Assembly: GCA_030704615.1 (NCBI GenBank)
Contig: CM060732.1
Coordinates: 7,998,001-8,062,000, forward strand
DNA length: 64,000 nucleotides
Direction: 5' to 3'
Origin: Takakia lepidozioides
Taxonomy: Eukaryota; Plantae; Bryophyta
Position numbers and translations under genes: made by a program
Part shown: positions 15,922-55,540 of the stretch, piece after piece
Layout of the letters: each line of letters opens with the position of its first letter
Position numbering within the stretch: the stretch's first letter is position 1
The notes under the pieces: model-generated
What the model was told of the DNA's origin: nothing
Seen by the model: the letters and a program-made list of their open reading frames with translations, nothing else
Databases searched by the model: none

Positions 15922-16167
15922 TCATTATCTGTCCAGTCATGTAGTCATTGCATTTGGCCGGTGACCATGGTAAATTACAACATCCCTCCATATCTTTCAA
16001 TAAAAAGACCATATCATGTTGGCTGCCATTATATCAGGTGAGTGTAGTTACTTTATGCTTATTATTCTCTTAGATTTTACATTTTTCTTCTCTCTGGCGC
16101 AATTTTGATGCAAGATTGATGAGTGACGTAATCATGGAGTAAGATATGTTATTCACTATGAAGTATA

Positions 16168-16705
16168 TGTCGCGCACCTAAGCATCGTACCACAACATAC
16201 ATCGCTGTCCACCACACAATCTAAGCACACAATCCTAGAAAGCTATACCACAATGATAATGGAAGTGAACATAATGGAAACCCTCCACTCATGAATCCAC
16301 TCAATCACATAAACTAAGTCAAGCCAAGGGCACCCTTGCTAAGGGAATCCACCCTACAAAGCCCCCACCACACTCCCTCTCAATACCTAGAGCTATGGAG
16401 GTGAGAGAGGCTCATGGAGGCTCAACTACAAGAAGATGAGTCTCCTCCATCCTCACAAGGGGAAAACCTATCCTCATGTCCCAAGTGAGGCTTGACACCT
16501 CACTTGGCATGTGAGACCAAATGAAGTCCCAACACACAAAATATAAATATAAATATCTAAAATGTCCTAGTTAACTAGAAGTAGGTAATTCTAGATAACC
16601 ATGACTAAAACCATGACAGCTGTCGTGTACCTAAGAATCGTGCCACAACATACATCGTTGTCCACCACACAATCTAAGTACACAATCCTAGAAAGCTATA
16701 CCACA
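16168..16705 (-). repeat. 3' terminal repeat block Y1-GC-X2-T-Y2 of copy 1
   Basis: Y2 16168-16252 and Y1 16621-16705 (6 differences in 85 bp); X2 16254-16618; Y1/X2 junction is the palindrome GACAGCTGTC (16615-16624). Confidence 0.9.
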
Positions 16706-16717
16706 ATCGCCCCCCTA
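16706..16717 (-). promoter_or_regulatory. Polypurine tract of copy 1
   Basis: Minus strand TAGGGGGGCGAT directly before the TG of Y1; the same sequence occurs in copy 2 at 50312-50323. Confidence 0.85.
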
Positions 16718-16974
16718 GCTGGTGATTAGGTCCCTCTAACACCGGATAGCTGACAAGTATCCATCCCAATAAGATCATCGTTTGGCATCAATCGCCCAAG
16801 TCCTAGTATCTGAAGGCAATAGATCAAGAGGCCGGGTGCAAAAGTAGCCCCATCGTCACTTGCCTTCCTGCAACCCATGGCTCCAATTGGGTGTCCATGG
16901 CATTGAGCTCCCGTTAGCTAGACCTTGGATCACTTGTCAACCTCACCACTATCATGCCCCACTACCTCTATCCA

Positions 16975-18330
16975 AGGCATCGTGGACACAATCATTCTCC
17001 ACTATGAACCTCCTCAAGTGGCGGTGTCAAGCATCCCATGTGCCACCCCCTTGAGCATTTGTCACACACCAACATGGTCGCGGCACCACCAGCATGCCCA
17101 CATAGCATGCAACGCAACCCTGCAGGTACCACTGCAAGGTTGGGATCTATCCTCTCATCCACATGTGGAAGGTGACATGGCGCACAATTGCGCACATGGT
17201 CGTTCCATACCATGCCATCTCGACCCTCCAGAATCAACACTCCTGAAGGCAACACCTCCCGGACCTTTAGAATCACACGACCTGCTATGACATCCAAGGT
17301 CATAGGCGCTGTCTGCTGCAGATACACATAGTCCCCAGGATGAAAACGCCGAACACCTGTCGATATCCCCCTCCACGTATAGTGGCGTATCTCAATGTGT
17401 CTCGGTGTTGGGCAATAGCAAGGTTTTCAAAAGCCATAGGCATGACTCTCTTGAACAACTCTGCCCGCTGGGAACATGCTTGTGTCCACACATCCGGATC
17501 ATCAAGGTTGAGGACTGCTGCAGTCTCCCTACGAATAGATGCAGGCAAATCCGGCTCTCGGCCAAAGAGAAGGAAATAAGGCGAGAACAAGGTAAGTGAT
17601 GCTTGCTTGCTAAACCTGTAGCCCATGGCCAACCAAGGTAGCTGAAGGTCCCAATCTCCCAAGTGTCCCTTCTGCAAGCCATACTTGCGCAAGCCTTGTT
17701 AGACTATTTGCACAACCCTCTTGGCCAAGCCATCAGCCTCGGGATGATCCCGAGAAGTAGTGCGGTGATTTATCAAGGCTTGCTCACACAAAGCCTGAAA
17801 CTCCCCCAAGAACTCTCTCCCCTGGTCCATGAGTACCTCGGCTGGAGCACCAAATTGGCTAAGCACTCGATCTAAGAATGCATATGCAGCCCCCTCACTT
17901 GCCTTGTCATGCAATGCCACCAGTTCAATCCATTTGGAGAAATGTTCCACCATCACCAGCACATACTTATTATGGCAAATCATCAGTGGCAATGGGCTTG
18001 CGAAGTCAAGACTCCAACGATAGCCCAAACCCATCATGGGTAAAGGATGCAATTGTGGAGTAGGTGCATTGAAAGAAGCCCGCACTCTATCACACACCAT
18101 GCACCTTGCCACTAACTGTTGCACATTCGTGTGCATGTCCCGCCACCAATACTGTCCTTACAGCAAACTATAAGTGCGCCGCATCCCAAAATGTCCCAAC
18201 TCCTCATGGGCATGGCGTACCAATCGCGCTCGTTGTGTTGGATGAGGCACAATCCTCACTCGTCCATCCTCCCATACCCGGAGTAGGTGAGTCCCCTCCC
18301 ACTTGAATCTCTTGGTTCGTTGTAGGACCC
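16975..18330 (-). pseudogene. Integrase (HHCC zinc finger + DDE core) with C-terminal PHD finger, copy 1
   Basis: HAHEELGHFG...CMVC; WSLDFA...VLMDQGREF...HPEADGLAKR; then CMLCGHAGGAATMLVCDKCSRGWHMGCLTPPLEEVHSGE*LCPRC (C4HC3; the W codon is mutated to TGA). Several stops and frameshifts. Confidence 0.9.
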
Positions 18331-18595
18331 GATCTCTCTCCTTAGCACTCACACTGGCTGCTGTCTCTCCGGTACGAAGGTAGGCCAACACTGCTGCATC
18401 TTCATATACATCCTTAGCACCACCAAGCTCCTCACTGATCTCTGGATCGTCATGCACACTATCTTTATGACCAATCACATGGGATGGACCAGCTTGAGCT
18501 CCCATTGCTAGAATGCATAAAAATGCAGATGCGTGTCATCCTGGCACCATCTCCTCGTCCGTCTCACCATGCCAACAAGCTCTTGTATCATCAAG

Positions 18596-20093
18596 CTAAC
18601 TTGTGCATGGATTGCGACTCAATCCATCCGCATCCCGGTTGACTATTTTGGCTCGATGCACCACCTGGAAGTCGTATTCTTGAAGCATAAGTGCCCACCG
18701 TGCAAGCTTCCATGTAAGCTTGTCTGACTCCATCAACCACTTCAATGGTTGGTGATCCGTGACAAGAGTGAAGAGATTGCCATAGAGGTAGCATCTAAAA
18801 TGTGACACTGCCCATACTGCAGCCAGACACTCCCCTTCATAGGAACTATACTTCACCTCGGCATCATTGTTCGAGCGGCTAGCATATGCCACTACGAACT
18901 CTCTTCCCTCATTATCCACCTGTGTGAGCACTGCTCCAATCCCCAGCATACTCCAATCCGTATGTAGCTGGAAAGGCCGCCCCCGAATAGGCCGCCTCAG
19001 AATAGATGCAGGAGTCAATCGAGCCTTGAGTTCCTCAAAGGCTTCCTCCTGCTCCTTCTCCCACTGCCACTCCTGACCCCACCTTGGTCAACTTGGCAAG
19101 AGCCTTTGCAATGCTGCTAAATCCCTTGACAAACCGTCGATAATAGTTTGCCAATCCCATGAAAGCACGAACTCTGCTCATATCCATGGGGCGTGGAATG
19201 CATGCAATGGCCTCCACCTTTGTCTATTGAACACCCAATCCTCCAGGGTATATCATGTGGCCCAGATACTCAATCTGATTGTGGAAGAGCTTGCACTTTC
19301 CGGGGTGCAGTTTCAACCTGTGCGCTCTCAAGCGCTCAAACACCACCTGAAGGTGTCTCTCGTGCTCCTCAATCGTAGCACTAAAGATGATGATGTCATC
19401 AATGTAGCACCAGGCGAAGTCTAGCCCCGCAAGAATCCTATCCATGACCCTCTGAAACTCTGCATGAGCATTCTTCAACACAAACAGTAGGAACCGCCAT
19501 TGGTACAAGCAATCCTTCCCATATTGGTCAATCCCCCAGAATGTCGTCTTTTGTTTGTCAGCCTCTTTGATTGGCAACTGGTGGTAACCGGATCGCAAGT
19601 CCAATGTGCTAAACACCTTTGCATGCCCAATGGCATCAAAGATCTCCTCTGGAGTTGGCATGGCATATCTATCGGACTTAGTCTGACGGTTCACATGACG
19701 ATAGTCCCCACACATCCTTCTTTCTGTCCAATTGCCATAGATATCCTTCTTAGCTGGCATCACCGTTGCCGAGGTATACTCCCCGCCTGACAGCTCCACC
19801 AATCCAGCTTCGAACAACTCCATAGTCCGTGACTGGATCAATGACCTCTCCATGTCACTATACCGGTAGGGCCTTCGAAAGATTGGCGTGTCACTTGCCA
19901 AATCAATATGACTCTCCTGACCCTTCAAACTCCCCAAATCCTTCAAACCGAAGGCAAAGCAATTTCTATAAGCCCTTAGAAATCGCTGGATCCTCCGTCT
20001 CTCTCCTCCGGTAACTGTAGGTCCAACATCTGGTTCCCAATTGTCCTCAGTGACTGCAACCTTGGGTACACCAGGCTTGGAGGTAGGAGACAA
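18596..20093 (-). pseudogene. Reverse transcriptase and RNase H, copy 1
   Basis: RMCGDYRHVN, FSTLDLRSGYHQL, CYIDDIIIF, IEYLGH; RNase H FQLHTDWS...VVAYASRS...YEGECLAAVWAV...TDHQPL. Confidence 0.93.
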
Positions 20094-20499
20094 ATCCTTT
20101 GGTTGCTAGATAGCAACCTCTTGGGCCTTGTCCACCCACTCTGATTGTGGCGTAGCCTCCACTTGCTCCGCCATAGCCACCTTGAGAGCATCCTCTGAAC
20201 AAGAAACATTCTCAACCTCTTCAAAAACCTTAGCCACCTTGTCCTCCAACTGATCCTCAGTGTATGACTTTCCCCACTCCTCATACTGCTGCTTGAGAGA
20301 TCCAATAACTCTCTCTTTGCGCATCTCATCCCACATTTGCCATGGGTGTTTGCACCCCATGATCCAGTGCTCGCCCCCACTCACTGCCTCCACCGTCCCG
20401 GTTGGCAGAGAGGGTGCAATATCCAATGGGAGTGCGGAAGTAGCCACCAATGCTTGCAATCTCCATTGCTCAGCCATACACAAGCCAATGACCCATGTC

Positions 20500-21430
20500 A
20501 AGCAATTGAGATCCATTGCCTGACCCAACACCTGGCGTCGTGATGCCTCTGACAAAACTGGCACAGTTGTAGTGTCCGTGGGAAATCCCATTGCCCGCTC
20601 TCGCTCATCCACATTGGGCTCCACCAATTGCTGTAACACACTGTCCCAAATCAACCCAGGACCATTGTCTCGAAAAGCATGAGACGAGGGAAAGCTCATG
20701 AGCGTAGGCAAGGCTGCACGTGGCTACCCCACTCGATTTACCACTGCCAGAGGTGGACGGTCATCATGTCGCACCCTCTGTGGTTGCCTCCCTTGGTCCA
20801 AAATGCCCCAACCGTGAGATTGGGTGGCAGTTGAATGGAATCATAGGTTCTCTTGAGCAACTCTGGTGTGCAAGATTGGTCCACCACAACCTAGGCCTAT
20901 GTGCCCGTGAACCCACTGCAGCTGCATCCAACAATACAGCTAGTCCAATCCATGACCGGATCTGATGTACACTGGCCATAACCCTGGCCCGAGAATCCCC
21001 CATGAGAGGAACATTCTCCAAGATGTAATCTGGAGGTTGCACTTGCCTCACGTGCAAGTCACGCAACACTCGCAGCATCTCCCAAAACAGATGTGATCGT
21101 GCATCTTGCAAACCATTACCATGACCTGCGGGAGAATGTCCTTGGCAAGGCCACCCTCCTATCACCAAATCAATGGGATCATGCCGATCCAAATCCTCCA
21201 CCCCCAGCATGGTAATGTCTGCTGGCAAGGCCTTTTGGTACCCTTGAATTTGCTGAGAGAGGCAACAACTCAAGATACTGATGTGTGAGCAAGGCAACAT
21301 GGCGCATGGAAACACGCCGAGCAATCTCATCCTTCTCCACATACAAGTACTTGCGTACTTTGATCCCTGCTTGCAACACTCCTACAAGCCCAGTGCTCAT
21401 GCCTCCAAACATGTCTAGCAAACAAATCCC
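20500..21430 (-). pseudogene. DNMT3-like C5 cytosine methyltransferase domain inside the retrotransposon polyprotein, copy 1 (frameshifted)
   Basis: Motif I LDMFGGMSTG; II YVEKD; IV DLVIGGWPCQGHS; VI YILENV; VIII AVLLDAAAVGSRAHRPRLWWTNL; IX ERERAMGFP; X RRQVLGQAMD, in canonical order. Confidence 0.9.
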
Positions 21431-21779
21431 CGGGTCAGGTGGTTGTCAGGTAATGGGCACTATGTCCAAAGGAGCTAACTGAGGAGGTCCAGGTGATGTC
21501 ACTGAACCCCCCTCACTCACCAATGGATAGGCCTTCTGCCATGCTTGGTGCACACACTCGCCTGCTACTCGATGCAAATTCCCAACTGTACCCCACAGTG
21601 GAATATGAACAGACACATGAGGAAGCAAATCAGCCTTATTTGCCAATTGTTTGTCCTCATCAGGTGGTGGCCTATCATCTGCATGGCTATTGCCCTCCAA
21701 GAGGTCACCACCCCAAGCCGCCACCCCTGAGAATGCAGCCAATGTGGGCATCATCTTCCTATGATCCACCGCTACATTC

Positions 21780-23970
21780 TCAATAAACCGCACTGGGAGC
21801 AGTGCACGCCGACCATCCCCTGACTGCCATTCCGGCCTGTAGGATGTTGTTTCCTCCCAAAAGTCCAAAGTAAAGCCCATAGGCTACAACACAGCCCCAC
21901 CAACAAGCACATCATAGGACATCGCATCCGTAACAATGGCTTTAGCTCTCAAGATTGAGCTGTCCGTAGGATGATCCGGCTGTAATCGAATGAAGAGCTC
22001 ATGGCGTGTAATCCCTCGCCTTCTCTGAACCACCCAAAGATGTTTGAATTTGGAAAGGGCAAGGCCCCAAATCCGCCTCTGTGAGGCCCAAGCCTGCAAT
22101 TGCTCTCTCCCCAACATCAATGGTTGTGCTCCCGAGTCCAACAAGACCCGCAGTGGCCTACACCTCCTCTCGGTTGGGCCACCCAATTGAAACACTCCAT
22201 CCTGATTGTCCACCAGGACTACCCCAGGAGTCACCATGTTGCGCTCAATGGCTGGCCTAGCTGGCAACTCCTGCAACCTTACAGCTGCCGCTTGCCATGG
22301 TACAGCTGTGGCTGACTTCACCCTCGAATCCAAAGCATCCATAGACTACACCTTATCTGCTTTCTCCGCAGATAGTGCCGATACATCACCACTCTCACAG
22401 AGTCTAGCTGCTAGTCTGAACACAACAGCTGGCCGAATCCCCGGCATTGCAATGGTCATTGCAGAAAATAATGGAGCTTGGCAAACCGCCGTAGCCGCCC
22501 CCAACAATGTACTGGCTGCACCTTGTTTTACAGCACCACCCACTGGCATTTCCCGAGCCACACCAACTCTCCCCAATGGTATTCGTGGCTCTACCTCTGA
22601 CACACTTAGGCGAGCGGGTACCATTGATGGCGTAGGTGGCGCTGTCTTAGCCAATGTAAAGGATTGTGGAAGCCTTGTCTGACGACTCGCTTCCCCCCTT
22701 TGTGGATCAAAATCCACATCCGCTCTTCTTGGTTCAGGAGCACGCGTTGCTGCTCGAGTGACAGCAGCTGCCAAGTCCACATGCAATGGTCCTACAAGTG
22801 CAGCTCCACACATGAAGCCCATACCAATTTGGTCTTCCCTAAGCATAGGAGGTTGTGCAGGTGGGGCTTGAACCTCAAGCCTTGGAGCTGGCGCAACATG
22901 AGTAGTGGCCATGGCAGCAAGACGTTGCTCTAGCTGGGCAAGTCTATCCACCATGCCTTGGTCATGACCTTGACTCTGACCCTGTGCTCCTTGGTTTTGG
23001 TTATGACCTCCACCCTGACCTCTGCCTCCTCTACCTTTCGGGACTACATTGCCTCGTCCTCGGCCACCATTGTTCCCTTGGAACTGGCCTGGCTGTAGCT
23101 CAGGATGCAAGCCATAACAATGGGCCTCCTCATGCCCATACTTTCCACAATGCCCACACTGTAGTTGTGTAGGCTGTGCATGTGCCGACCCTTTGCCTCT
23201 CTCCGAGCAATCCTTCTTGACATGGGGTCCTCCACAATCCCAACAAGTCACACCCGACTATCGTTGGCCTGAGAATGAAGGGAGAGACCTCTGCATCTGA
23301 GATCCTCTCTGTCCTTCCCTCAGCTTCACCTGAGCTCCCTTGTTGCTTGAATACGTTGGGGTAGTGGTTGTTGTTGGCTAGGAGCCCCACTTCATTGTGT
23401 TTCCTTGCCAAACCCCACCATAACACTCGCAGCCCCTCCACCATATTGAGCTCTATCCGCTCTGCCAGCAAAAACACATTTGCTAAGGAGGGTTGGTCCA
23501 CTTGTGGGAGAGTTGCATCCCGCACCCTACTCCTCAGCTCCTTGTCCAGGATCCCATACTAGAACTGGATTCCTGAGCTTCTGTAACCCCTTGGGTTACG
23601 TTTATCAAGCGCCTCATGCGGGTGTAAGCCTCCCTCAAACTCTTAGTTGACCTTCGTTGGATCTCTTGCAAGCTCCGCAACTTCTCTGTCCTTATCCCTT
23701 GGTAGTTTCTCCTCAACTCCTCGAAGAACTCCACAACTGGTTAAATGCAGGCACGTGTGCTGGTGTTGCAGCAGGAGCTTGAGTGGATTTCCCAGCTCCT
23801 GTACCACTTGTCCCACTACTAGTGCTTGCAGTTGGAGATGTTTGTGTAGCTGCTGGTGTCACCGCTGCCCTTGTGCATCTAGTGATGGAGACATAGTTAG
23901 GTGACCAATACTCTCGCCACTCCTCAATCTCTACCATGTGTCCCCGCCTAAATTCATCCAAGCACAATGA
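21780..23970 (-). pseudogene. gag (two zinc knuckles) and aspartic protease, copy 1; gag N-terminus deleted
   Basis: CWDCGGPHVKKDC and CGHCGKYGHEEAHC knuckles; protease VLLDSGAQP...YDVLVGG; collinear with the gag of copy 2. Confidence 0.85.
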
Positions 23971-24788
23971 AATCAAAACAGTAACTCCCCCACACCAAAA
24001 ACACTCCACGGTGTCGCTTCTGCAAGACACCCCAGCCCAAACCCGGACTAACTCTTGCCTCCACCTACGGAAAGGTTTTGGCCTACAAAGAGGGTGGAAG
24101 ACTACAAGGAAGAGAGACTAAAGCAATTCCTATCACAACATGCTCTCATCCCACTACCCTATCTCCACACTATCTTGCTTAAGCAATAGACAAGACCTTT
24201 CAAGGATCTCTCAAATAACTCTCTAAGATCCCTCAAGATGTCTCTCAAACAATCTCACTAAGACCCCCAAAGCTTGGACAATGGTACTCCAAACAGTACA
24301 CGAAGGCCCCAAGAGCCTGCCAAATCTCGGCCCTCAAGGACCCCAAATAGTCCTTCAACAAGTCGCCAAAGACTCCTCAAGCTCGCCAAATATCGGCCTC
24401 CGAGGACCCCAAACAGCCCTCTAAACAACCTTCCAAAGGTTCCAAAAACTTGCCAAATATTGCCCTTCAAATACCCCAAATGGTCTTCCACATAGCCTTC
24501 CAAAGGCTCCAAAAACTTGCCAAAACTTGACCTTCAAAGACCCCAAATGGTCCCTAGATAGCCTTCCAAGGCTCCAAAAACTTGCCAAAACTTGGCCTTC
24601 AAGGACCGCAAATAGGCCTCCAAATAGTCATCCAAATACCTCTTCAAGAGCTCTTCAAAATGCCTTACAAAGCTCCTCATAGTGTCTTCCAAAAGCTCCC
24701 CAAAGGACCCCAAAGATCCCCCAAACAATCCTCCAAAAGGCCCTTGAAAATCCTCCAAAAGCCCTATATTGTCATTATATGTCACTAT

Positions 24789-24955
24789 GTTCCCAGCCTA
24801 TAGTGACCGTTCCCACACCTTGGTGACCATTCCCAGACTACGGTGACGGCTCCCAGATTATAGTGACGGTTCCCAGACTACAGTGACGGCTCCCAGACTA
24901 CGGTGACCGTTCCCAGACTACAGTGACGGTTCCCAGACTACGGTGACCGTTCCCA
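24789..24955. repeat. 20-bp tandem minisatellite (~8 units) in the leader of copy 1
   Basis: Consensus cggtgaccgttcccagacta; followed by ~3 units of ctagggtttgtgcatcccatg (~24962-25035). Confidence 0.9.
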
Positions 24956-26372
24956 TGCACATAGGGTTTCATGTGCATCTCATGCTAGGGTTTGTGCATC
25001 CCATGCTAGGGTTTGTGCATTCCAAGCTAGGGTTTGGGCTTCCTTGAGCTTCATGCTTGCTCTCCTCAAGCATCCATGACTTCTATGAGATACCAATGCA
25101 ACCTACCTTTATCTTCTTCACCTCAAGCCACAACCAAGCTTGATTCCATCTCACCTAGCAATGCATTTGCCACACAACAAGCTTCACTTCTCTTTGGAGC
25201 TCAAGAATCAAGCTTTTTATCTCATTTGATAAGCAACCAAGTCTTGCACTCATTCATGTGTTCTCCTTTGGCCATCCACACACATGCTCCATTCTTGGCT
25301 TCTATGTGTTGCTTCTCCAAGCATCAATACATCTCCATCTCATGCAAAGAGGAAGATTCAAGTCCCTTCACTTGCTAGCTCAAGAGTTGTGCTCTCCTCA
25401 AGCTTAAGGTTGAAACCCCAACTCAAACATGTGCTCTACAAGTGCTTTTCCTTCACCTAAGTGAAAACCAGCCCTTTTCCTTTCTTCTTGCTCTCCAAGG
25501 CTTGAAAATAGAAGCCTCAATGGGCTGAAAACATGCTCCACATAAGCATCGCCTCATACACAAAAGAATAACTTGTTCTCTTCACTTTCTAGCTCTCCTC
25601 AAGCTTGAAGTTGGAAGCCGCACTTGGAAAACATGCTCCACACATGCGCCACTTGCTTGGTCAACCACTTGCTTCAACAAGAGCAATCTAGACTAGCAAA
25701 AGCACTCCTTTCTAGCGCCTTAGCTTGTTTGTTTGTCAACCAAATGGAACCCCACTTGGCTTCGTTTCACCGTGGATAAAACAACCACTTCTTAGCTTCT
25801 CTTGAGCTACTCAATGCTCTTCAAGCTATCCTTGCTGTACTCCTTTTATGGTGTTTCTAACCCAAGCATGTGCCGCTCTTTGGCTTCTCTTTCACACCAT
25901 GAACAACTAGAGCTTGCTCTTGAAACCCTAGTGTCTATCTTCTCCACATACAAGACTCTCTTGTGATGCAAGAGCTCTTTTCCAAGCTCTCAAACCCTTG
26001 GTGCACAATAATGCTTCTACAAACCCTCAATGCATTCTTTTCACCATAGAAGCCACTTCCTTGGCAAATGGTTGTCACAACACTTGAGATACAAGAGATG
26101 ACGCTCCTTCTTCTCAAACTTTCAAACCTTTGCTTCCACACACACAAGACTTTCTCCCTGCAATACTTGCAAAGTCTTGTAACTCAAGAGCTCTCTCTCT
26201 GAGCTCTCCACCTCCTTGATGCAATGCAAACACACTCTCCCTTGCAACACCTTGCAAGCCTTGTGAGATACCTGAGCTTTCCCTAGCTCCCTCACTCCTT
26301 GGTGTACACCAACACAAGTGCAAAACTATCCTTACACTCCGCACTCACAAGCATAAGGTGATCTTCTTGTAG

Positions 26373-26737
26373 TGATAATGGAAGTGAACATAATGGAAAC
26401 CCTCCACTCATGAATCCACTCAATCACATAAATTAAGTCAAGCCAAGGGCACCCTTGCTAAGAGAATCCACCCTACAAAGCCCCCACCACACTCCCTCTC
26501 AATACCTAGAACTATGGAGGTGAGAGAGGCTCATGGAGGCTCAACTACAAGAAGATGAGCCTCCTCCATCCTCACAAGGGGAAAACCTATCCCCATGTCC
26601 CAAGTGAGGCTCGACACCTCACTTGGCATGTGAGACCAAATGAAGTCCCAACACACAAAATATAAATATAAATATCTAAAATGTCCTAGTTAACTAGAAG
26701 TAGGTAATTCTAGATAACCATGACTAAAACCATGACA
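26373..26737 (-). repeat. 5' terminal repeat X1 of copy 1
   Basis: 365 bp, about 6 transitions relative to X2 (16254-16618); no Y segment on its outer side. Confidence 0.92.
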
Positions 26738-26799
26738 TATATTTTGCATGGTGGAGCATTGAAACAATAATGTACTGAACCAAAAACTCTCATACGGAA

Positions 26800-27560
26800 A
26801 AAACAAGTGAAACATATGAGGGATGATCCATACCCGGTTGGTGTCCGGATAGCACATATGGTGGCTCTCACTTTCCTGTATTCCTCCTTTGTCCATTGCC
26901 AAGGTGCTAGTCGGCCCATAGATATGGCATGCAACGACATTGCTCCTCAAGCTCCTTTCTAACATTGAGAGAATCACTTTTTGCAGACACTCCCTTCTTT
27001 GCCGACGTGTCATTCAAGACACGAAAAAATGACGAACAAACATTCTTCTCAATATGCATGGGTTGTAGAAGATGACGAATCTTCAAGTACTACATATACC
27101 CCCACCCACAAATTCTTACACAAATATTTTGACGTGAAAGTAACAATGGAAATCATACAAAATGTGCAATATCACATGCATACATAATAGTATTGATGGT
27201 GTTTTTGTGGAATATGTACCGCCCAATATGACAATTCGTATAAGATTGAAAATTGCTTCATGTCGGGCACGTCCACTTCACCTGCCCCCTCCGCTTGGAT
27301 CTCCTTTCATCGGTCTTCCCAAAAACCGTCCGGATGGTGTCACATGTGGGGGGCGTACTTCATCTTTGTTATCAAACAAGTTCTTTTCTCTTCTTCTCCA
27401 TGGATGGTTCATAGGAAGAAACTTACGGTAGTTCGGATACATCATCTTGCGAAGATGGGGGGAGCGATGTGCATCAAGTTCATCATCACAACATGGGCAT
27501 GCGTGGTACCCTTTGGTGCTCAGCTCCAAACAAACAGATAGTCTTGCAGACATCCCGCAA
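26800..27560 (-). pseudogene. CACTA (En/Spm) Tnp2-type transposase fragment
   Basis: STKGYHACPCC...RKFLPMNHPWRR and LAPWQWTKEE...IRTPTGYGSSL match Tnp2 middle-region motifs. Confidence 0.7.
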
Positions 27561-32519: not shown

Positions 32520-32735
32520 TCATGAAGGGAAAAGATGTCCATGGTGATATCGTCAAGGCTGGAATAATACCAGATGTCATTCTGAACAATACCCTTGTTG
32601 ATATGTATGCCAAATGTGGGGGCACTGTGGATGCAAATGAAGTGTTTGATGGGCAAACGAGATGTGATGTTCTGGAGTGCTATGATTGCAAGACATGCAA
32701 AACATGGATATAGGGGATGGAGGCTTTGGAGACCT
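32520..32735 (+). pseudogene. PPR (PLS-class) gene fragment
   Basis: KGKDVHGDIVKAGIIPDVILNNTLVDMYAKCG...WSAMIARHAKHG with frameshifts; similar to repeats of the gene at 57334. Confidence 0.8.
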
Positions 32736-32785
32736 GTGATCAAATCCACATCAGTAGGGGGTGAAGCCAGACCGAGTCGGGCCAC

Positions 32786-37331: not shown

Positions 37332-38949
37332 TGGGTTGACCCCATCCATGGACAAGCTGAGGCGGACATGTCATGGGTCGTCCTTCAGAAATTGCCATCT
37401 CTCAGCGGCAGCAGGTGCAAGAGCAAACCCCAGCTCGGGGAGAGCTCGGGAACGTATGAGAACTCATGTGGAGTTCGTGGGAACGCAGGGAACTGTTGAC
37501 CGTGACCGTTGACCATGACCGTTGGAAGCCGTGGTACGGACACCACGGGTTGGCACGGTGACCAGATCGTGGGGATGGCGGGCCGTGAAGGCTCGTGGGC
37601 ATGGTACCACGGGGTATCACGGGGCAGCCCGTGGCCAACGAGCCCCTAGGGCGGGCCGTGAGGAGTCGTGGCGGTTGGAGCCACGGAAGGCCGCGAACAG
37701 CTAGAGTGAAAAAAAAAAATTAAAAAAAAATTAAAATTTAAATAAAAAATCACTCGTTTCGTGGGACCTTGATGGGGAGGCTGGGCTTTGAGAAACAACG
37801 GTTTTGAGCTAGCTGATCCGGCAGAAAAGTCAGAATTGCCTCCCTGTTGCATTTTAACAAAGGGGATTACTTCCCTGTAGGTAATCTTTTCGGGTTTTCA
37901 GCCCAATTCTTAACTATGGGGGAGACCAGCCTGCAGGTAATTCCTTTGGATAGAGTGTGGTTGGGGCCTATATGTACTTCTATTTGCTCCATTTTTTAGC
38001 CTTCAGTAAATGGCGTGGTTTCCTGAGGTGGTTCCATTCTGAGGAATGGCTAGTGGACGTAAGGAGGCACTGGCGGACCCTGTGGAGGCTTGCATGGGGC
38101 CTTGGAGACCAAGTTTCATGAGCTCGTGGAGGGCGGTTTGAGGAGTGTCTACAGGATGCTCTCATGGTCATGCAAGTGAGAGAAGAGAGGAAAAAAGAGG
38201 GTGTTGGGATGAGAGCATGCTGGGGATATGCATTGCTTTAGTTTCCCTTCCTCGTAGCTTTCCACCTTCTCTGTAGGCCGAGACCTTTCCGTAGGTGGAG
38301 GCAAGAGTCAGTCCGGGTTTGGGCTGGGGTGTCCTTGCAGGAGCGACACTGTGAAGTTTTTTTTGGTATGGGGGAGTTGTTGTTTTCATTCTTGTGTTTG
38401 GATCTCCTCCACACCTGCATGCTTGATTGTGCGCCATGCTAGTTTTGTGTGGGCGCTTGATTTTATAGGTGGTTGACTCGGGCTTGATCGCCGATCCAAC
38501 CCTATAGCATGTTGTCGATGGTGAGGTGGGTTGATGACCAGTCAGACCATCTTTGTTTCTCCTGTGGTGAGGTTGGAGGTGATGACCAGCCAACCATAGG
38601 AGTGCCTGCGGTGGATGCAAGTGTAGGTGCAGGCTATGTTAGGAACCTAGTATTCCAAACCATAAGCCGCATCAGGTTCTCTACCCGGATACCTTGTGGA
38701 GAGGGGGTTAGAGACAGGTTCATGACCGGTTGAGTGTCAGTTTGTCAACACGGAGGTGCCACTAGTTGCTGGGGAAAATGCCTGTACGAGCACTAGCAAT
38801 GCTAGCGGGTATACGAGGCGAGGTGTGCAGTTTAGGCCACCTTCACCTCTTGTGTCTTCTACGGAAGGTTGTGATTTTGATTGTGAATCAGGAGAACTCG
38901 CACCGGCGGTGCAAGTTGTTTCCTTGCCATTGTTGTGGGACACAATGGA

Positions 38950-41760
38950 GGAGATGTATGGAGCCACCAAGGGGCCACGTAGGTACTCTGGGGCGGTGGG
39001 CACCATTGAGTTGGATGATTTTATCCAAGAGTTTAATAGTTGGTGTGACTTGCAGCAAATGCGCAATCCACAACTGTTTACGCCTTTCATGGCAAGGAAG
39101 GGGCTGTATGATCTCACATGAAAAATCAAGCCTTCTTCTTTGAAAGAAATTGGTGAGTACAGCGGCAAATTGAAACATGTGAGTATATTTCTTTTTGGTG
39201 GAGTCGATGCGCTTCATCAAGCGTCTCTATTTTCTTTTCATGCCCCCTATCCCCTATTCAACTTACACGCGGTAGCCGACATGCATCTTGTTGTAGGTCC
39301 TAGTTCCTTCATCAACATCCATTTGAGGGGCCGCCCATAGATGATTACCATGAGTTTAGGCGGGGGCACAATGTTGAGATCGAGGAGTGGAGGATGTACT
39401 GGTCACCCGACTATGTCTCCATCACTAGAGGCACTAGAGGGACAAGGGCAACAGCCACACCGGCAGCTTCCACGAGCAGCAATGGGACTAGTAGTACAAA
39501 GGCTACGACGTCCACCCAAGCTACTGTTGCACCAGCACCAGTGGCGGTGTCTGTCTTCAACCCTGTTGTGGAGTTCTTCGAAGAGTTGAGAAGGAACTAC
39601 CAAGGGGTGAAGACAGAGAAGTTGAGGAGCTTGCAAGAGTTCCAAAGGAAGCCTACTGAGAGCTTGAGGGAGGCTTTCACTCGCATGAGGCGCTTGATAA
39701 ATGTAACCCAAGGGGTTACGGAGGCTCAAGCAGTCCAATTCTGGTATGGGATATTGGACAAGGAGCTGAGGAGAAGGGTGCGGGATGCAACTTTCCTACA
39801 AGCGGCCCAACCCACCTTAGCAAATGTGTTTTTGCTAGCAGAGCGGATAGAGCTCAACATGGTGGAGGAACAAGTGGTCATGGTGGGATCTGCTAAGGAG
39901 GCACCACGGCTTAGTGGTGCTCCTAGCCAGCCACTACCTCAACGTGCTCAAGGCAACAAGGGGGCTCAGGTGAAGCCCAGGGAAGGACAGAGAGGACCTC
40001 AGATGCAGGGGTCTCTCCCTTCATTTGTTGGCCAACAACGGGCGGATGTGGTGTGCTGGACATGTGGAGGACCCCATGTCAAGAAGGGTTGCCCAGAGGG
40101 AGGCAATGGTTTGGCACCGGCACAGCCTACACAGTTGCAGTGTGGGCATTGTGGCAAGTACAGGCATGGAGAAGCTCAGTGCTATGGTTTGCATCCTGAG
40201 TTGCGCCCAGGCCAGTTCCAAGGGAACAATGGTGACCGGGGGCGAGGTGGAGCAACCCAAAGAGGACGAGGTGGCCAGGCACGAGGTGCAAGCCAAGGGC
40301 AAGCTCAACATGGCCGGAGACGTGGAGGTCAGGGTGTTGACATGGCCAACCGGCTTCAGCAGCTAGAGCAGAGGCTCGCTGCCATGGCCACAGCTAATGT
40401 GGTACCGGCTCCAAGGCCGGATGGTCCACCTCCTGCTGCTGAGGGAGGAGACATTGGAGGCATGGGATTCATGTGTAGGGCAACACTATCACTAGTGAGG
40501 GGTGCCACTACCACTATCACTGTGGGTGAGGCACCACTACCACTAGTGCCAGGCAACACTACCACTACCACTATGTGTGGGACAGGACTACCACTGGTGC
40601 AAGTGGAGTCAGCTGCGGCAGTGACTCGAGGAGCAGCACGAGTTCCTGAGCCACGGGGTGTGGAGGTGGAGTTGGATCCACAGCGTGGGGAGGCAAGCCG
40701 TCAGGCCAGGCTTCCTCAGTCATTCACATTGGTGGAGACAATGTCAATGCCATCCATGGCACCTAGATCTCGCCCGACTGTTACTGAGGCGGAGGTTATT
40801 ATGCCATTGGGGAGAGCTACACGGGCAGCACCACTACCTAGTATTGCCAAGGCTACGGCAGCTAGTGTGCTGCTGGGGGCGGCCACATCTGTGTGCCAGG
40901 CTCCATTGTTCTTGGCTACCATGATTGCGACGCCGGGGGTAAGACCAGCTGAGGTATTCAGGCTGGCAGCTACACTATGTGAGAGTGGGGAGGTTACTTC
41001 ATCTTCTGCGGAGATAGTGGGAGGTGTAGTGGCGGAGGGATTCTCGGATGTAAAGGTCAAAACTGCCACGGCGGCGCCATCGCAAGCTGCAGCTGCCAGC
41101 TAGGCCAACCATTGAGTGCGCCATGGTGACACCTAGAGTTGTCATGTTAGACAACCAGGATGACATTTTCTGTTTGAGTGGACCGGCACGCAAGAGGTAC
41201 CGGCCACTGCGGGTCTTGTTGGACTCGGGAGCTCAACCATTGATGTTGGGCAGAGCTGCTATTGCAGGTTTGGGCCTCACGAAGGCGGATATGGAGCCGT
41301 GCTCTTTCCAGATACAGACATCTCTGGGAGGATCAGAGCAGGCTCGGGGCATGACACGGCATGTGGCTAAGTGATGAGAGCCAAGGCCAGTGTGACAGAC
41401 GTGGTCTCGTACGATGTCCTTGTTGGTGGGGCAATGTTGTACCCCATGGGCTTCACCCTAGATTTTTGGGAGAAGTCAGCTTCCTATAGGCCTAGATGGC
41501 TGTCAGAGGAGGGCCGGCGTGTGCATCTCCCCGTGACATTCATAGGAGGAGTTGCGGTTGCCCAGCGAGGCAAGATGCTGACACTGGTAGCATTCACAGC
41601 TACAGTGACTTGGCCTGGAGAGTTGTTGGATGGCAACACTCATTCAGAGGATGTGTCACCTCCGGGAGAGCAGGATGACATGCATGGTATGGCAGAGTTG
41701 CCTGCCATGGTTGCTCACACTCCATTGTGGGGCTCGAGCAAGGATTGGCAGCGGATTGCT
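38950..41760 (+). pseudogene. gag and protease, copy 2
   Basis: 569-aa open stretch 39394-41103 with CWTCGGPHVKKGC and CGHCGKYRHGEAQC; N-terminal ELDDFIQEFNSWCD; ~200-bp interruption near 39110-39318; LLDSGAQP. Confidence 0.88.
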
Positions 41761-43191: not shown

Positions 43192-46100
43192 CACTAGAAG
43201 AGAAACCGGCTTTTTCCTAGGTTTTTTCCACACTTTTTGTTGTGGAATCAGCCGCAGTCCACACCTGCCGTGGGTGTAAGAAACGATTAGTGCTTTCGGA
43301 CACCCCGTGGACGGCCTGGCTCTCGGGTGGCCCTGTGGAAAAGTCCACGGGTGGCTTTTTCTACGGGAGGCTTTTTCCATGGGTGGTTTTTTTCACGGGG
43401 TGCATGGTGACATGGCCACTGACATAGCCGATAACATAGCTGACATGGCAGAGTGTGAAAAAGGCCAGTGTGGCATGTTTCATGGCGGATTTCACACCTT
43501 GAACAAGCCACTATGCGACATGTGTCATATTTCACACCTTCGACAAGTCACTATGCAACACGTGTTCGTTCTTGTGTGGTGGTACACATTAATTAATTAT
43601 TAATTGATTTCCAATATTAAGTTTGAATATTAATGGATTTAATTTATTGTTATTATTATGATGATGATTATTATTATTATAGGAAAAATGGACAGTGGCC
43701 TTGATGAGAACATTATTAATAACAAAATATTGAAATTATGTTTTTAGAAATTATATTTATTCGCTCAGATACCAAAACACACATTTTGCAGGGAAGGAGA
43801 GTTTGTCTTAGTGTCTATGCTGAGTTGCATCTCCTACTCTCTGTAATCTAATAGACATTCACCTTTTTCCCTCGGTTGTCCCACCCTTGACTGGGGTCAG
43901 AAAAGCATTCATTCCACAGCTTCTCCTCATCTCTGTTACATGTTTCTGGATACTTTCCTATTGTCACTTTGGCAGTATCATGTCAAAATCACTCCAAACT
44001 ATGTACCATCTACCCATGCAGGTTTCTTGTAGCTATCCTTCCACAGGGAATCATAAGTAATCTGGAGCTTGAAATCTGGCCCTCTTGGATGACACTCTAT
44101 CCCTGCTCCTTCAGCTATCCATGCCTCTGCACAGATCATGCATACATCCTTGCATTGTTGTTAGCAGCTGACAATGGTAGCCTAGACTTGTTCAAGCAAA
44201 CACCCAACTCAACTTATCACACCAGTTCATATTCTCAATTGCATCTACCACTCTGTAATCCAAAGGCATTTACCTTCCAAGACGGTTGTCCCACCATTGA
44301 CTGGGGTCAGAAAAGTATTCATTCCACAGCTTCTCCTCTCTGTTACCTATTTCTGGATGCTTTCCTATTGTCACTTTGGCAGTATCATGTCAAAGTCACT
44401 CCAAACTATCAAAGGTTCACTCAACCAGCTAACTTGCAGAATTCTTAAAACATGAAAATTTAGGGCGATTCTGATAAGAGGGGAAAACAGAGTGAAATGT
44501 GTTGAAGAAGGTGCCTTGATTAGCATTGCCTGATTTTATCAATTGTGCCGCTGCTGCTACGGCTTCCAGTTGACCATCTACCCATGCAGATTTCTTGGAG
44601 CTATTTTTCCACAGGGAATCACCCCTTCCCGCATCATTGCTCATAGGTCTCCAAAGCCTCCATCTGCTCCCTTGCTGTGCATATCCTGCAATCATCGCAC
44701 TCCACGACACCACATCTCGTTCAGCCATACTGTCGAACACTTCCTTTGCATCCTCGATGCACCCACATTTGGCATACATGCAGTCCACCAGGGCAGTGTT
44801 TAGAATGACATTGGGTGCAATTCCAGATTTGACGATGTCACCATGGATCTCTTTGCCCTTTTCCAGAGCTCCCAGGCTTGCACATGCATTACAAACAAAT
44901 GTGATGTGGTTGGGCTTCACCCCTTCGCGCAGCAGTTGCTCATAGGTCTCCAAGGCATTCCTACCACACCCATGTTAAATCCTGCCAACATTATATTCAA
45001 CGTGATTAAAGTTCGTTGAGGCATTCCGTTGAACACTCGGTGTGCATTCATGATGCTCCTGCACTTAATATACATGTTCACAAGGGTGTTGAGAAGAAAA
45101 ACACTTGGCGTGAATCCACTTTGGATAATGTGAGTGTGCACCTGCTTTCCAGCTTCCAGACCCTTCAATTTGATGCACTTAAGCAAGAGACAGACATACA
45201 TATCTGAATCTGCTGAAATGCTCCTTGGTTTAAAGGTTGTAGAGCCTCTTTCAGTCTGCCTGCCTCACAAAGCATGAAGAAGAGGCATTATGGACTCCCT
45301 CTCTTGATCCTCTTTTAGAAGCTGTGGTCATGGTTGAGGTGCCTGATTTAAATCAGGGCTGCCAGCCCTGCAATGCACACAAACATGATGTGGCCGGGCT
45401 GAACGCCTTCCCCCATCATTTGCTCATAGGTCTCCAAAGCCTCCATCCCACGTCCCTGTTGTGCATACCTTGCAAGCATCGCACCACATCTCGTTCAGCC
45501 ATAGTGTTGAACACTCCCTTTGCATCCTCGATGCACCCACATTTTGCATACATGTCCACTAGGGTATTGTTCAAAATGACATTTGGTACAATTCCAGGTC
45601 TGAAGGTGTCACCATGGACCTCCTTCCCCTTTTCTAGAGCTGCCAGGGCAGTGTTTCGATTGGCATTAGGTACAATTCCAGCTTTGATGATCACCATGCA
45701 CCTCTGTGCCCTTCTCCAGGGCTGCCAGGCCTGCAATGCATACAAACATGATGTGGCCGGGCTGAACCCCTTCCCCCATCATTTGCTCATAGGTCTCCAA
45801 AGCCTCTATCCCATGTCCCTGCTGTGCATATCCTGCAAGCATCGCACTCCACGACACCTCATCTCGTTCAGCCATAGTGTTGAACACTCCCTTTGCATCC
45901 TCGATGCACCTACATTTTGCATACATGTCCACTAGGGTATTGTTCAGAATGACATTTGGTACAATTCCAGCTCTGAAGATGTCACCACGGACCTCCTTCC
46001 CCTTTTCCAGAGCTACCAGGGCAGTGTTTAGAATGACATTAGGTACAATTCCAGCTTTGATGATATCCCCATGCACCTCTTTGCCGTTCTCAAGGGCTAC

Positions 46101-50055: not shown

Positions 50056-50323
50056 TGAGATAGTGGAAGTGGATATAACTAGTGGCAGCCAACAAGACAT
50101 GGGAGGCCAAGCTCATAGGAGTCAATACCCGAGATCTCAGGCTCAAGTTCACAGGTTGCAAGACGGCGACTAACGATGGGGCAACTCTTGTTCCCGGCCT
50201 CTTGATCTATCGAGTTTGAGTGTAGTAGGGACAGTGGTGGAGGACTTATTGAGGCTATGGCCACTATCACATCTTGTGGCTATCTGGACTTAGAGGGACT
50301 TAAGCGCCAGCTAGGGGGGCGAT

Positions 50324-51618
50324 TGTGATGGACTAGTGGCAGCCTAGTGGTAGACTAGTGGTTGCACTAGTGGTGGCTAGTGGCAGCCTAGTGGTTGGAC
50401 TAGTGGCTGCAATAGTGGTGGCTAGTGGCTGCACTAGTGACAGACTAGTGTTTGGTGTGCACATGTGTTGTGTAGTTTTAGACAACGATGTAGTTGTGTA
50501 GCGATATGTATGCGCACGACAACTGTTAAGTTATTTTACCACTAGTGTGAAATTAGCTAGGAAATAGCTAGCTTTTATATATTGATATTTGGGATTGATC
50601 CAAGTGTCAATCCAGGGGCCAATATATGTTTGGGCACTTGGCGTTGTTATCTTCACGGCAGATTGCGGTGGGCTCATCTTTCTCGAGTTGAGCCTCACCG
50701 CGTCTAGCTATGGCGCCGTAGTGTGGATTCCCCATGGCGTGGGGTGCACTTGGCTCGACTTAATATATGAGTGATGTTTTCATGTGCAAGTATGTGAGTT
50801 TGAGAGAGCTTGTGTGCTTGTATCATTTCTTCTTTATCATTGTGATGGATTAGTGGCAGCCTAGTGGTAGACTAGTGGCTGCACTAGTGGTGGTTAGTGA
50901 CAGCCTAGTGGTTGGACTAGTGGCTGCACTAGTGGTGGCTAGTGGCAGCCTAGTGGTGGACTAGTGGCTGCACTAGTGATATACTAGTGTTTGGTGTGCA
51001 CATGTATTGTGTGGTTTTGGACAACGATGTAGTTGTGTAGCGATATGTATGCGCACGACAGCTGTCAAGTTATTTTACCACTAGTGTGAAGTTAGCTAGG
51101 AAATAGCTAGCTTTTATATATTGATATTTGGGATTGATCCAAGTGTCAATCCATGGGCCAATATATGTTTGGGCACTTGGCGTCGTTATCTTCACGGCAA
51201 ATCGCGGTGGGCTCATCTTTCTCGAGTTGAGCCTCACCGCGTCTATGGCACCATAGTGTGGATTCCCCATGGCGTGGGGTGCACTTGGCTCGACTTAATA
51301 TATGAGTGATGTTTTCATGACATGCAAGTATGTGAGTTTGAGAGAGCTTGTGTGCTTGTATCATTTCTTCTTTATCATTGTGATGGACTAGTGGCAGCCT
51401 AGTGGTAGACTAGTGGCTGCACTAGTGGTGGCTAGTGGCAGCCTAGTGATGGACTAGTGGCTGCACTAGTGGTGACTAGTGGTTGTCTAGTGGTGGCTAG
51501 TGGCAGCCTAGTGGTGGACTAGTGGCTGTACTAGTGATAGACTAGTGTTTGGTGTGCACATGTGTTGTGTGGTTTTGGACAACGATGTAGTTGTGTAGCG
51601 ATATGTATGCGCACGACA
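50324..51618 (+). repeat. Tandem terminal repeat block Y-X-Y-X-Y of copy 2; Y contains a CTAGTGG-core minisatellite
   Basis: Y 50324-50521, 50841-51060, 51379-51618; X 50524-50839, 51063-51377; junctions GACA-GC-TGTC (51057-51066) and ttatca-t-tgtg. Confidence 0.92.
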
Positions 51619-54399: not shown

Positions 54400-55540
54400 C
54401 TGTCTAGTAGTCCCCGTCCCAGCCGAAGTCAGCTGGGTCGCTGTGCTGATCGCGCCTGCCAATCCTTCGCATTATTAACATTTATTCCCCCATGTAGCCC
54501 GGGTCCCCTAGGAGATATTCGAAGTACTCATCTTCATGCATGAAGTATTGCCGCCAATTTCTATGAATGTCAGAATGTCGCAGGATGGTAATGTCATGAA
54601 ATGACCCCGGGTACCCTGAATCTATGTAATTAAACAGTCTATCATTGTTCAATAGTCTCTCATATGCAACTTGCAAAAAACGAGTTTCAAATATTGAGTT
54701 GATGTAAGATGATGGTCAACCACGACGGTGTTGTTCATACAGTAGATCTTCTTACGGCCGCTAAACCATGTTTTGTGTTCTTGATTCTTCCAAGGAAGCC
54801 GAATTTTGACCAGGGTACCGTCAATCAAACCGATACATCTTTGAAAGTCAGGTATATGAGTGGCCAACCTAGCTTGCTCTTATGGGGTTGGCCAACGGAT
54901 TTCGTTTGCAATTGTGTGGTTTATGCAGGAAGAGATGAACATGGCATCATCGCACAACGAACTTCTCGACCAATTCCACATCAATGAATCGTAGAAGTTA
55001 TAATTCTCCTCTACTTCTGGAGTGACAATGTTTGGCATTTTTTTGTAGGCTAATAGCCTAATATTAGTTGTCATGCTTGAGGTATAAAATGAAATTGAGT
55101 AATGGTTGGTGAGGGGTTAGCTTACATGGCCTGCCAATGCAAAGTTTTTCTTCGCTTGTCAATCTCACATTTGAGATGATAGTCGGCACTACCAATGCAG
55201 CTAGCTCCTCAAACTCTTCTACAATAAAATTAGTGAGCTGCTTGAAAAGTGTAGGTGTGGCTCGCATTGTGGCAAGCACATCCCGGACTCCAACCTCTCG
55301 AGCCCTCCTCCATCTCGTTAGAATTGAACAAATCTACCGAACTAGAAGCAACTAGCGCAGCTTGAAGAAACATGGAAGCATCTCTCTCCATGTCGTCGAA
55401 CAGAGCATCATCACTTGAAGAAGATGAGCTATCATCGCTTGAGGGAGATGACGAGGAGCCTGCCATGTTGTCATCTCCCTCGTTGTCATCGCTTGAGGGA
55501 GATGACGAGGAGCTTGCCATGTTGTCTGATCGGCACACAG
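54400..55540 (-). pseudogene. PIF/Harbinger (DDE_Tnp_4-type) transposase, degenerate
   Basis: IRWPT...CIGLIDGTLVKIRLP...FSGRKKIYCMN; SGYPGSFHDITIL; YLLGDPGY; acidic Ser-rich N-terminus; two short insertions; C-terminus missing. Confidence 0.85.

What the first reader, a model, noticed from the sequence alone, without database searches (positions are those of the whole stretch)
26361..26564. No tRNA primer site: a 13-nt complement to a conserved LTR hairpin loop (candidate self-priming or kissing-loop signal)
Seen in sequence: directly after X1 on the coding strand there is no TGG-type PBS but ACTACAAGAAGAT (26373-26361). This is the exact complement of ATCTTCTTGTAGT (26556-26544), which is the 12-nt loop plus one base of a 9-bp stem GGAGGCTCA/TGAGCCTCC (26535-26564) inside X. 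The X of copy 2 has an equivalent hairpin, gcggtgggctca-tctttctcgagt-tgagcctcaccgc (~50665-50701, ~51204-51240), with a related 12-nt loop. Established knowledge: Tf1-group Gypsy elements self-prime using the 5' end of their own RNA. Inference: this family uses a tRNA-independent priming structure, possibly linked to the split-repeat mechanism.
Basis: partly seen in the sequence, partly recalled or inferred. Interest (0 to 1): 0.75.

Follow-up and report, generated by a model that had tools for sequence, protein, structure and literature searches.

The report
Self-primed retrotransposon with permuted terminal repeats
A moss/liverwort-type jumping gene has no tRNA primer site; the 12-13 bases after its left repeat match a stretch inside that repeat in three families with different sequences, so it likely primes its copying with its own RNA and likely inserts by cutting inside its repeat rather than at the ends of the copy.

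Summary
Observation confirmed base for base. A third family in moss-type metagenome contigs has another site, ACTCAAAGAACT, again complementary to its own repeat (23 of 28 copies with at least 10 of 12 pairs). CACTA end and tRNA site are rejected. The element is a Ty3/Gypsy with DNMT, RT, RNase H, DDE integrase, PHD and X...Y-X-Y repeats, like KnitGypsy-Dnmt3 (PMC5890265). Best reading: Tf1-like self-priming; a stable kissing loop is unlikely (12-16 bp; not a loop in family 3). X ends at the primer site, Y starts at the polypurine tract, X|Y looks like a joint of the two cDNA ends, and insertion is at an internal palindrome (GACA-GC-TGTC) with a 4-bp target duplication. Transcript start and cleavage are inferred, not shown. 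Not a Tf1/sushi member (no chromodomain; separate RT clade).

The parts
26374..26737 (-). X1, left repeat (starts TGTC; carries putative R-U5)
   Evidence: 98.4% identical to X2 over 365 nt; contigs diverge into unrelated flanks at 26737 (agreement 0.38-0.45 in 3 runs)
26361..26373 (-). Self-complementary primer-binding site ACTACAAGAAGAT
   Evidence: no variant at 2% or more listed at 26361-26373 while 26360 varies in about 30% of depth in 3 of 4 runs
26544..26556 (-). Putative self-primer ATCTTCTTGTAGT
   Evidence: exact complement; covaries with the site in families 2 and 3
26535..26564 (-). Hairpin enclosing the primer segment (GGCTCA...TGAGCC arms in all three families)
   Evidence: no substitution listed at 26529-26566, one minor insertion at 26559
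26436..26444 (-). Conserved GGCTYGACT motif, possible alternative partner of TGAGCC (uncertain)
   Evidence: present in three families; no two-sided change; not formed in the family-1 fold, 0.77-0.96 in 3 family-3 folds
16971..23957 (-). Broken gag-protease-DNMT-RT-RNase H-integrase-PHD coding region
   Evidence: Pfam DNA_methylase, RVT_1, RT_RNaseH, rve; tblastn of relatives; PHD-type cysteine pattern and PF00628 in relatives
16708..16720 (-). Polypurine tract AGCTAGGGGGGCG
   Evidence: identical in copy 2 and closely matched before Y in 13 of 16 family-3 Y copies printed
16621..16707 (-). Y1 repeat
   Evidence: 93% identical to Y2
16615..16624 (.). Palindrome GACA-GC-TGTC at Y1|X2; its halves are the two ends of the inserted element
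   Evidence: also 51057-51066; exact in 1 of 6 family-3 junctions, decayed by a few transitions in 5
16255..16618 (-). X2 with second copy of the hairpin (16437-16425), followed by Y2 instead of the primer site
16168..16254 (-). Y2, right end (CGACA); X2|Y2 joint at 16254
   Evidence: same joint seen as loose ends at 26373 in runs X3 and X4
26738..26741 (-). 4-bp target-site duplication TATA, left copy (right copy 16164-16167)
50309..51618 (+). Copy 2 (family 2) right end: polypurine tract then Y-X-Y-X-Y, hairpins at 50665-50701 and 51204-51240; its 5' X is absent from the window
   Evidence: family primer site read from contigs

Best explanation
The 13 bases after the left repeat are complementary to a segment inside that repeat, and this pairing likely primes reverse transcription without a tRNA, as in fission-yeast Tf1: the transcript likely starts at or just before the segment, which folds back on the site and would be cut after AGU to give the primer end. 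Shown: complementarity and its covariation in three families; X stops exactly where the site begins; Y starts exactly after the polypurine tract; the X|Y joint is those two ends joined; the inserted element ends at the two halves of an internal palindrome with a 4-bp duplication. Inferred: the replicative LTR is Y+X; the hairpin's 5' arm is U3 sequence, so the hairpin would form only in the 3' copy of the RNA and keep that copy of the primer segment from competing; the finished cDNA (YX-internal-YX) has its ends joined and the DDE integrase cuts the palindrome of the left LTR, giving X...Y-X-Y.
For: Predicted family-2 site recovered: loose ends after X read TCCTTATCACTCGAGAAAGATCAGCT (run X4, 4 contigs, agreement 0.96), the same start in X1 (11 contigs, 0.78) and CTCGAGAAAGATCAGC in X5, another study (1 contig); positions 4, 5, 7, 8 differ from family 1 and all are compensated. 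Family 3: 23 of 28 parsable copies have at least 10 of 12 Watson-Crick pairs, 5 perfect; positions 11-12 differ again and are compensated; 3 loci reach 16 bp; position 14 covaries inside the family (4/5/1/18, one-sided p 0.026). Pair count on 21 rows: primer helix 94.8% paired, 3 of 10 pairs with two-sided changes; slid controls 28-57%. Family 3 has TATA 29 or 31 nt before the 12-nt core in 27 of 28 copies. Family-1 RNA started at the segment folds it on the site with mean probability 0.95, falling to 0.32 with 85 nt more upstream. Clean X|Y joints in 3 of 3 window junctions and 4 of 6 family-3 insertions; one insertion (L018 = L056) keeps 10 nt of the primer site in the joint. 4-bp duplication exact in 8 of 11 family-3 elements with both ends, one mismatch in 2. 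Tf1 mechanism as summarised in PMC7175516.
Against: No transcript start was measured. Families 1 and 2 have no TATA near -30; their TATA-like words lie at -118/-112 and -100, which would put the start 70-85 nt upstream and make the segment internal. In 3 of 5 family-3 folds upstream sequence did not lower the pairing (0.82 throughout), so the masking role is not general in silico. Run X2 gave a mixed loose end (5 contigs, agreement 0.73) matching only the distal part of the prediction. One search used 20 of 28 copies and left out the three most decayed sites. Kin share sequence, so three families are three comparisons, not dozens. A plain two-LTR circle has two equal palindromes and predicts as many XYX...Y inserts; 0 of 39 family-3 left X copies had Y before them, so an unexplained bias is needed.
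Confidence: 0.7

Rival explanations
1. Still self-priming, but from an internal segment: the transcript starts 70-85 nt upstream, the hairpin forms in the 5' copy, its loop first touches the site (kissing contact), the stem opens, and a cut after AGU frees the primer. This would differ from Tf1, whose primer is the first 11 bases.
For: TATA-like words at -100 to -118 in families 1 and 2; the GGCTCA/TGAGCC arms are kept in all three families and carry no listed substitution in family 1; local hairpin probability 0.66 with upstream RNA present.
Against: Family 3 has TATA at -29/-31 in 27 of 28 copies; there the upstream arm repeats the site's own sequence, so the segment can be stem, not loop. 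A 12-nt closed loop cannot make a 13-16 bp helix without opening (established A-form geometry).
Confidence: 0.18
2. The pairing is real but serves RNA dimerisation, packaging or a strand transfer, and the primer is something else (the RNA's own 3' end, or an unknown small RNA).
For: Covariation shows pairing, not function; nothing here measures priming.
Against: The repeat ends exactly at the first paired base in three families, as expected if DNA synthesis starts there; one joint keeps a copy of the site.
Confidence: 0.08
3. The sequence is a CACTA transposon end, a tRNA-fragment site, or a chance match.
For: It reads CACTACAAGAAG, and other CACTACAA words occur in the window. The host tRNA set could not be compared.
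Against: No exact partner end: the nearest matches in partner orientation are the two hairpin loops, each with a wrong terminal base. The homologous position reads CACTCGAG in family 2 and CACTCAAAG in family 3. Three different sites would need three tRNA fragments that each also equal an LTR segment. No Rfam match at E<=1 in 26200-26900. Chance 4 of 20,000.
Confidence: 0.03

Closest known systems
KnitGypsy-Dnmt3 of Klebsormidium nitens (de Mendoza et al. 2018, PMC5890265; section 9, passages and a supplement term search read)
   Same: Cytosine methyltransferase in the Pol of a Gypsy element; repeats arranged as in DIRS-type elements (A-coding-B-A-B).
   Different: The parts read give no primer site, att palindrome, target duplication or mechanism ('PBS' and 'primer binding' 0 hits in 3 supplementary files) and report the elements from a charophyte; here they are in bryophyte-type genomes (named relatives in Calypogeia, Marchantia, Sphagnum). 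Sequence relationship to the K. nitens element was not tested.
Tf1/Tf2, Tj1, Tf1/sushi group and plant Tcn1 clade (passages of PMC7175516, PMC4600332, PMC6317226, PMC2864245)
   Same: No tRNA site; a short site next to the 5' LTR complementary to a segment of that LTR (11 nt in Tf1, 12-16 here).
   Different: Those are chromoviruses with ordinary LTRs. This element ends in a PHD finger, carries a DNMT, forms its own RT clade, has permuted repeats and a conserved hairpin around the primer segment.
PAT/Ngaro-type tyrosine-recombinase retrotransposons with split direct repeats (layout quoted in PMC5890265; the rest recalled)
   Same: A-coding-B-A-B layout; a circular intermediate is implied.
   Different: DDE integrase (rve), TG...CA ends, a 4-bp target duplication, a polypurine tract and a primer site.
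Integrase cleavage of the palindromic two-LTR circle junction in HIV-1 and foamy virus (abstract and section titles of PMC4372172; search listing of PMC1180852 and PMC1905944)
   Same: A palindrome made of two att halves that integrase is reported to cut internally.
   Different: There it is a side route at the joint of the cDNA ends; here the palindrome lies inside the LTR, away from the end joint, and defines the ends of all copies scored.

Membership tests
Tf1/sushi self-primed chromoviruses | No tRNA site; site next to the 5' LTR complementary to that LTR | tested here: met
Tf1/sushi self-primed chromoviruses | Primer segment is the 5' end of the mRNA | tested here: inconclusive
   Only indirect: TATA at -29/-31 in 27 of 28 family-3 copies, none at that distance in families 1 and 2
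Tf1/sushi self-primed chromoviruses | RNase H cuts the RNA duplex to release the primer | not testable with these tools
   RNase H domain present; cleavage needs an experiment
Tf1/sushi self-primed chromoviruses | Chromovirus lineage with a chromodomain after integrase | tested here: not met
   PHD, not chromodomain; in a 74-sequence RT tree the window and its DNMT/PHD relatives form a clade (support 0.93-0.99) apart from the chromodomain-bearing proteins (midpoint root, Tf1 itself not in the tree)
Tf1/sushi self-primed chromoviruses | Two equal LTRs whose outer ends are the integrase substrates | tested here: not met
   X...Y-X-Y, ends at an internal palindrome
KnitGypsy-Dnmt3-like elements | C5 DNMT in Pol with Gypsy order RT-RH-INT | tested here: met
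   all 6 full or near-full family-3 elements also hit DNMT, RT, RH and INT
KnitGypsy-Dnmt3-like elements | A-coding-B-A-B repeats | tested here: met
   window copy 1; L007, L039, L049, L051, L065
KnitGypsy-Dnmt3-like elements | Common descent with the K. nitens element (DNMT and RT phylogeny) | not tested
   no identified K. nitens sequence was among the search results
DIRS/PAT/Ngaro | Tyrosine recombinase, no DDE integrase | tested here: not met
   rve hit and no recombinase family among the 7 copy-1 frames of 150 aa or more scanned; 4-bp duplication
CACTA DNA transposon end | Partner terminal inverted repeat | tested here: not met
   homologous position is not CACTA in families 2 and 3
tRNA-primed LTR elements | Site complementary to a host tRNA 3' end (TGG) or half | tested here: inconclusive
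   No TGG start in three families; host tRNA halves could not be compared (no genome held; no tRNA in the window)

The most novel reading that the evidence does not exclude
A clade of DNMT-carrying, self-primed Gypsy elements across bryophytes integrates only through an end-joined two-LTR circle: the cDNA ends carry no att site, and the DDE integrase always cuts a palindrome inside the left LTR. It would be a natural system in which the circle, usually called a dead end in retroviruses, is the obligatory precursor.
Probability: 0.4. Interest if true: 0.85.

Novelty: new variant of a known kind. Interest (0 to 1): 0.66.

Why it matters
It extends Tf1-type self-priming to a non-chromovirus clade with direct covariation evidence, and gives a mechanism for an architecture that the one paper found on it mentions only in a figure legend. 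The split repeats become readable as a permuted LTR bounded by the primer site, the polypurine tract and an internal att palindrome. That makes two questions testable in Marchantia or a moss: whether a DDE integrase can depend on circles, and whether a U3-encoded hairpin masks the 3' copy of a self-primer. Such elements lack paired terminal LTRs of the usual kind, so standard LTR finders probably mis-annotate them (inference).

Tried and rejected
No whole genome is held for the window, so copies could not be counted in the host assembly. No RNA holder listed, and all laid runs were contigs, so no transcript start. Scans of viral contigs and genome contigs gave no loci. No Rfam match, no tRNA gene. 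CACTA end rejected. The TGAGCC:GGCTYG stem as a Tf1-like R-U5 stem is left open: 96.8% paired but no two-sided change and absent from the family-1 fold. Within-family covariation at position 2 is not significant (p 0.064) and fits methylation-type G>A and C>T decay. Summed contig depth is about half as high over the site as over the hairpin, but the tool says this is no copy number, so it is not used. In L018 the 3' X starts at or within about 10 nt of the predicted cut, but the joint has microhomology and the element is rearranged: not counted. The REM1 paper is not held, so its priming model was not compared. Seven family-3 loci with a shortened or different upstream region showed no further family. 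Paper searches for a prior description found only PMC5890265 for the architecture and none for its priming; subscription journals, Repbase entries and theses were not searchable.

Full report
Observation. On the coding (minus) strand X1 is followed at 26373-26361 by ACTACAAGAAGAT, the exact complement of 26556-26544, which is the 12-nt loop plus one stem base of the hairpin at 26564-26535. Copy 2 has the equivalent hairpin twice. Four of 20,000 shuffles of X1 reached a 13-nt complement, and an unbiased scan of both strands found only this site in the window.

The element. Copy 1 spans 26737-16168 on the minus strand, begins TGTC, ends CGACA and is flanked by TATA on both sides. Its broken frames encode gag, protease, a C5 cytosine methyltransferase, RT, RNase H, an rve integrase and a PHD-type finger. 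The repeats are X1 (365 nt) ... polypurine tract, Y1 (87 nt), GC, X2, Y2. Named relatives of the RT are from Calypogeia, Marchantia and Sphagnum, and the window holds a PPR-DYW gene, so the host is probably a bryophyte (inference). The same domain set and repeat order were reported for KnitGypsy-Dnmt3 of Klebsormidium (PMC5890265).

Covariation test 1, family 2. The window lacks the 5' end of copy 2, so I laid public contigs on its X (4 runs, 2 samples, 2 studies; three runs may be the window's own sample). Contigs that leave X at its end continue as predicted: run X4, TCCTTATCACTCGAGAAAGATCAGCT (4 contigs, agreement 0.96); run X1, the same start (11 contigs, 0.78); run X5, from another study, CTCGAGAAAGATCAGC (1 contig). 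Run X2 gave a mixed line matching only the distal part (5 contigs, 0.73). The tool showed 24 loose ends and withheld 196. Families 1 and 2 differ at 4 of 13 positions and each change is matched in the loop. On copy 1 no substitution at 2% or more is listed inside the site or the hairpin, while base 26360, just outside, varies in about 30% of depth in 3 of 4 runs. Contigs also show the X|Y joint and many unrelated flanks at the TGTC end.

Covariation test 2, family 3. A gag profile found 141 related stretches in metagenome contigs, of which the tool kept 80; their gag resembles Sphagnum proteins in the alignment. Five have the full X...Y-X-Y layout. The site is ACTCAAAGAACT and the repeat carries AGTTCTTTGAGT immediately before TGAGCC. 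Of 39 distinct left-X rows, 28 could be parsed; 23 have at least 10 of 12 Watson-Crick pairs and 5 are perfect; some rows are one insertion in different assemblies. Three loci extend to 16 bp, and position 14 covaries within the family (p 0.026). A pair count on the window plus 20 of the 28 copies (dropped: L011, L014, L017, L026, L027, L046, L050, L077, which include the three most decayed) gave 94.8% paired for the primer helix with 3 of 10 pairs changed on both sides; slid controls gave 28-57%. Across families, positions 4, 5, 7, 8, 11 and 12 change and stay complementary.

Which kind of pairing. A 12-16 bp helix cannot form on a closed 12-nt loop (established geometry), and in family 3 the bases upstream repeat the site's own sequence, so the segment can be held in a stem. 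What is conserved is GGCTCA, then the complement ending AGT, then TGAGCC. In family 3 a TATA word starts 29 or 31 nt before the 12-nt core in 27 of 28 copies, which puts the expected start at the segment, as in Tf1, where the first 11 bases pair with the site and RNase H cuts after base 11 (PMC7175516). For family 1, RNA begun at the segment pairs with the site at 0.95, against 0.32 with 85 nt more upstream; in family 3 upstream RNA abolished the pairing in 2 of 5 folds and left it in 3. Against this, families 1 and 2 have TATA-like words only at -100 to -118. I therefore give the 5'-end primer 0.70 and an internal primer released from the hairpin 0.18.

Link to the split repeats. In all three families X ends at the base before the site's first A, Y begins at the A after the tract GGGGGGCG, and the X|Y joint is those two ends joined, with one A ambiguous. 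It is clean in 3 of 3 window joints and 4 of 6 family-3 insertions; L039 has a 19-nt insert, and L018/L056 (one insertion, two assemblies) keeps 10 nt of the primer site, as expected if a primer was copied before the ends were joined. The integration ends are the halves of GACA-GC-TGTC at Y|X, with a 4-bp duplication exact in 8 of 11 family-3 elements. The simplest inference is a standard cDNA YX-internal-YX whose ends are joined and which is reopened at the palindrome of the left LTR. The weak point is symmetry: 0 of 39 left X copies are preceded by Y, although a plain circle offers two equal palindromes. Five elements are X...Y only; these may be one-LTR circle inserts, Y-Y recombinants or assembly collapse.

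Rivals rejected. A CACTA end has no exact partner and the homologous bases are not CACTA in the other families. None of the three sites begins TGG; host tRNA halves could not be compared.

Comparison. It works like Tf1 in priming but is not a member of that group: no chromodomain, and a separate RT clade in a 74-sequence tree (of 113 that passed the length filter, every second unrelated sequence was dropped; Tf1 itself absent). It meets the two stated features of KnitGypsy-Dnmt3, with descent untested. Self-priming is already predicted for plant Tcn1 and TAR lineages (PMC6317226), though not found for SM-Tcn1 (PMC2864245). Eight paper searches found no description of priming or of the internal palindrome in this clade. 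An earlier AI note on another genome (e1-7226033) reaches the same reading; I saw it after stating mine and do not count it as evidence.

Papers seen. PMC5890265: section 9, passages, term search of 3 supplementary files. PMC6317226, PMC7175516, PMC4600332, PMC9940879, PMC2864245: passages. PMC4372172: abstract and section titles. PMC1180852, PMC1905944: search listing only. PAT/Ngaro details and helix geometry are recalled.

Verdict. Real, covarying, most likely a self-priming signal in a permuted-LTR Gypsy clade: a new variant of a known kind, interest 0.66; the circle-dependent integration reading has probability about 0.4 and would merit 0.85.

Noticed in passing
L018:15610-15910 and L056 (same insertion): The X|Y joint keeps 10 nt of the primer site plus 5 other bases, and the 3' X starts near the predicted cut; the element is internally rearranged but has a 4-bp duplication.
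   Followed up: partly
L014, L020, L022, L024, L052: Elements with one X and one Y only (no terminal repeat) and a 4-bp duplication: one-LTR circle inserts, Y-Y recombinants or assembly collapse.
   Followed up: partly
window 50322-51618: Copy 2 ends Y-X-Y-X-Y, one LTR unit more than copy 1; Y carries variable numbers of CTAGTGG repeats.
   Followed up: partly
window 23957/23956 versus 38403-39350: Copy 1 lacks about 950 nt, including the gag start, relative to copy 2. Copy 2 lacks most of RT/RNase H and is interrupted between 43200 and 47400 by other DNA that includes PPR-like fragments.
   Followed up: partly
window 26314-26378 (loose ends): In all 4 runs, contigs match the primer site and downstream bases but have a different X end, and one loose end shows a variant hairpin: further subfamilies exist whose site and segment could not be linked.
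   Followed up: no
window 26632-26590 (-) and 50600-50641 (+): A second hairpin (CCAAGTG...CACTTGG) precedes the primer hairpin in families 1 and 2; family 3 has a different inverted repeat at the same place, just before its TATA.
   Followed up: no
window 15480 (+) and 37331 (-): CACTACAA words, the one at 37331 beside short subterminal-type repeats: possible real CACTA ends, unrelated to the finding.
   Followed up: no
window 57316-60465 (+): Open 1049-aa PPR protein with E, E+ and DYW domains (Pfam); related fragments at 32525-32745 and 43816-46141.
   Followed up: no
window 54400-55700 (-): Broken frames that by eye recall a Harbinger/PIF-type transposase (recalled; not tested).
   Followed up: no
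window 24303-24975: Two tandem arrays (about 66-nt and 20-nt units) in the 2.4-kb leader of copy 1.
   Followed up: no
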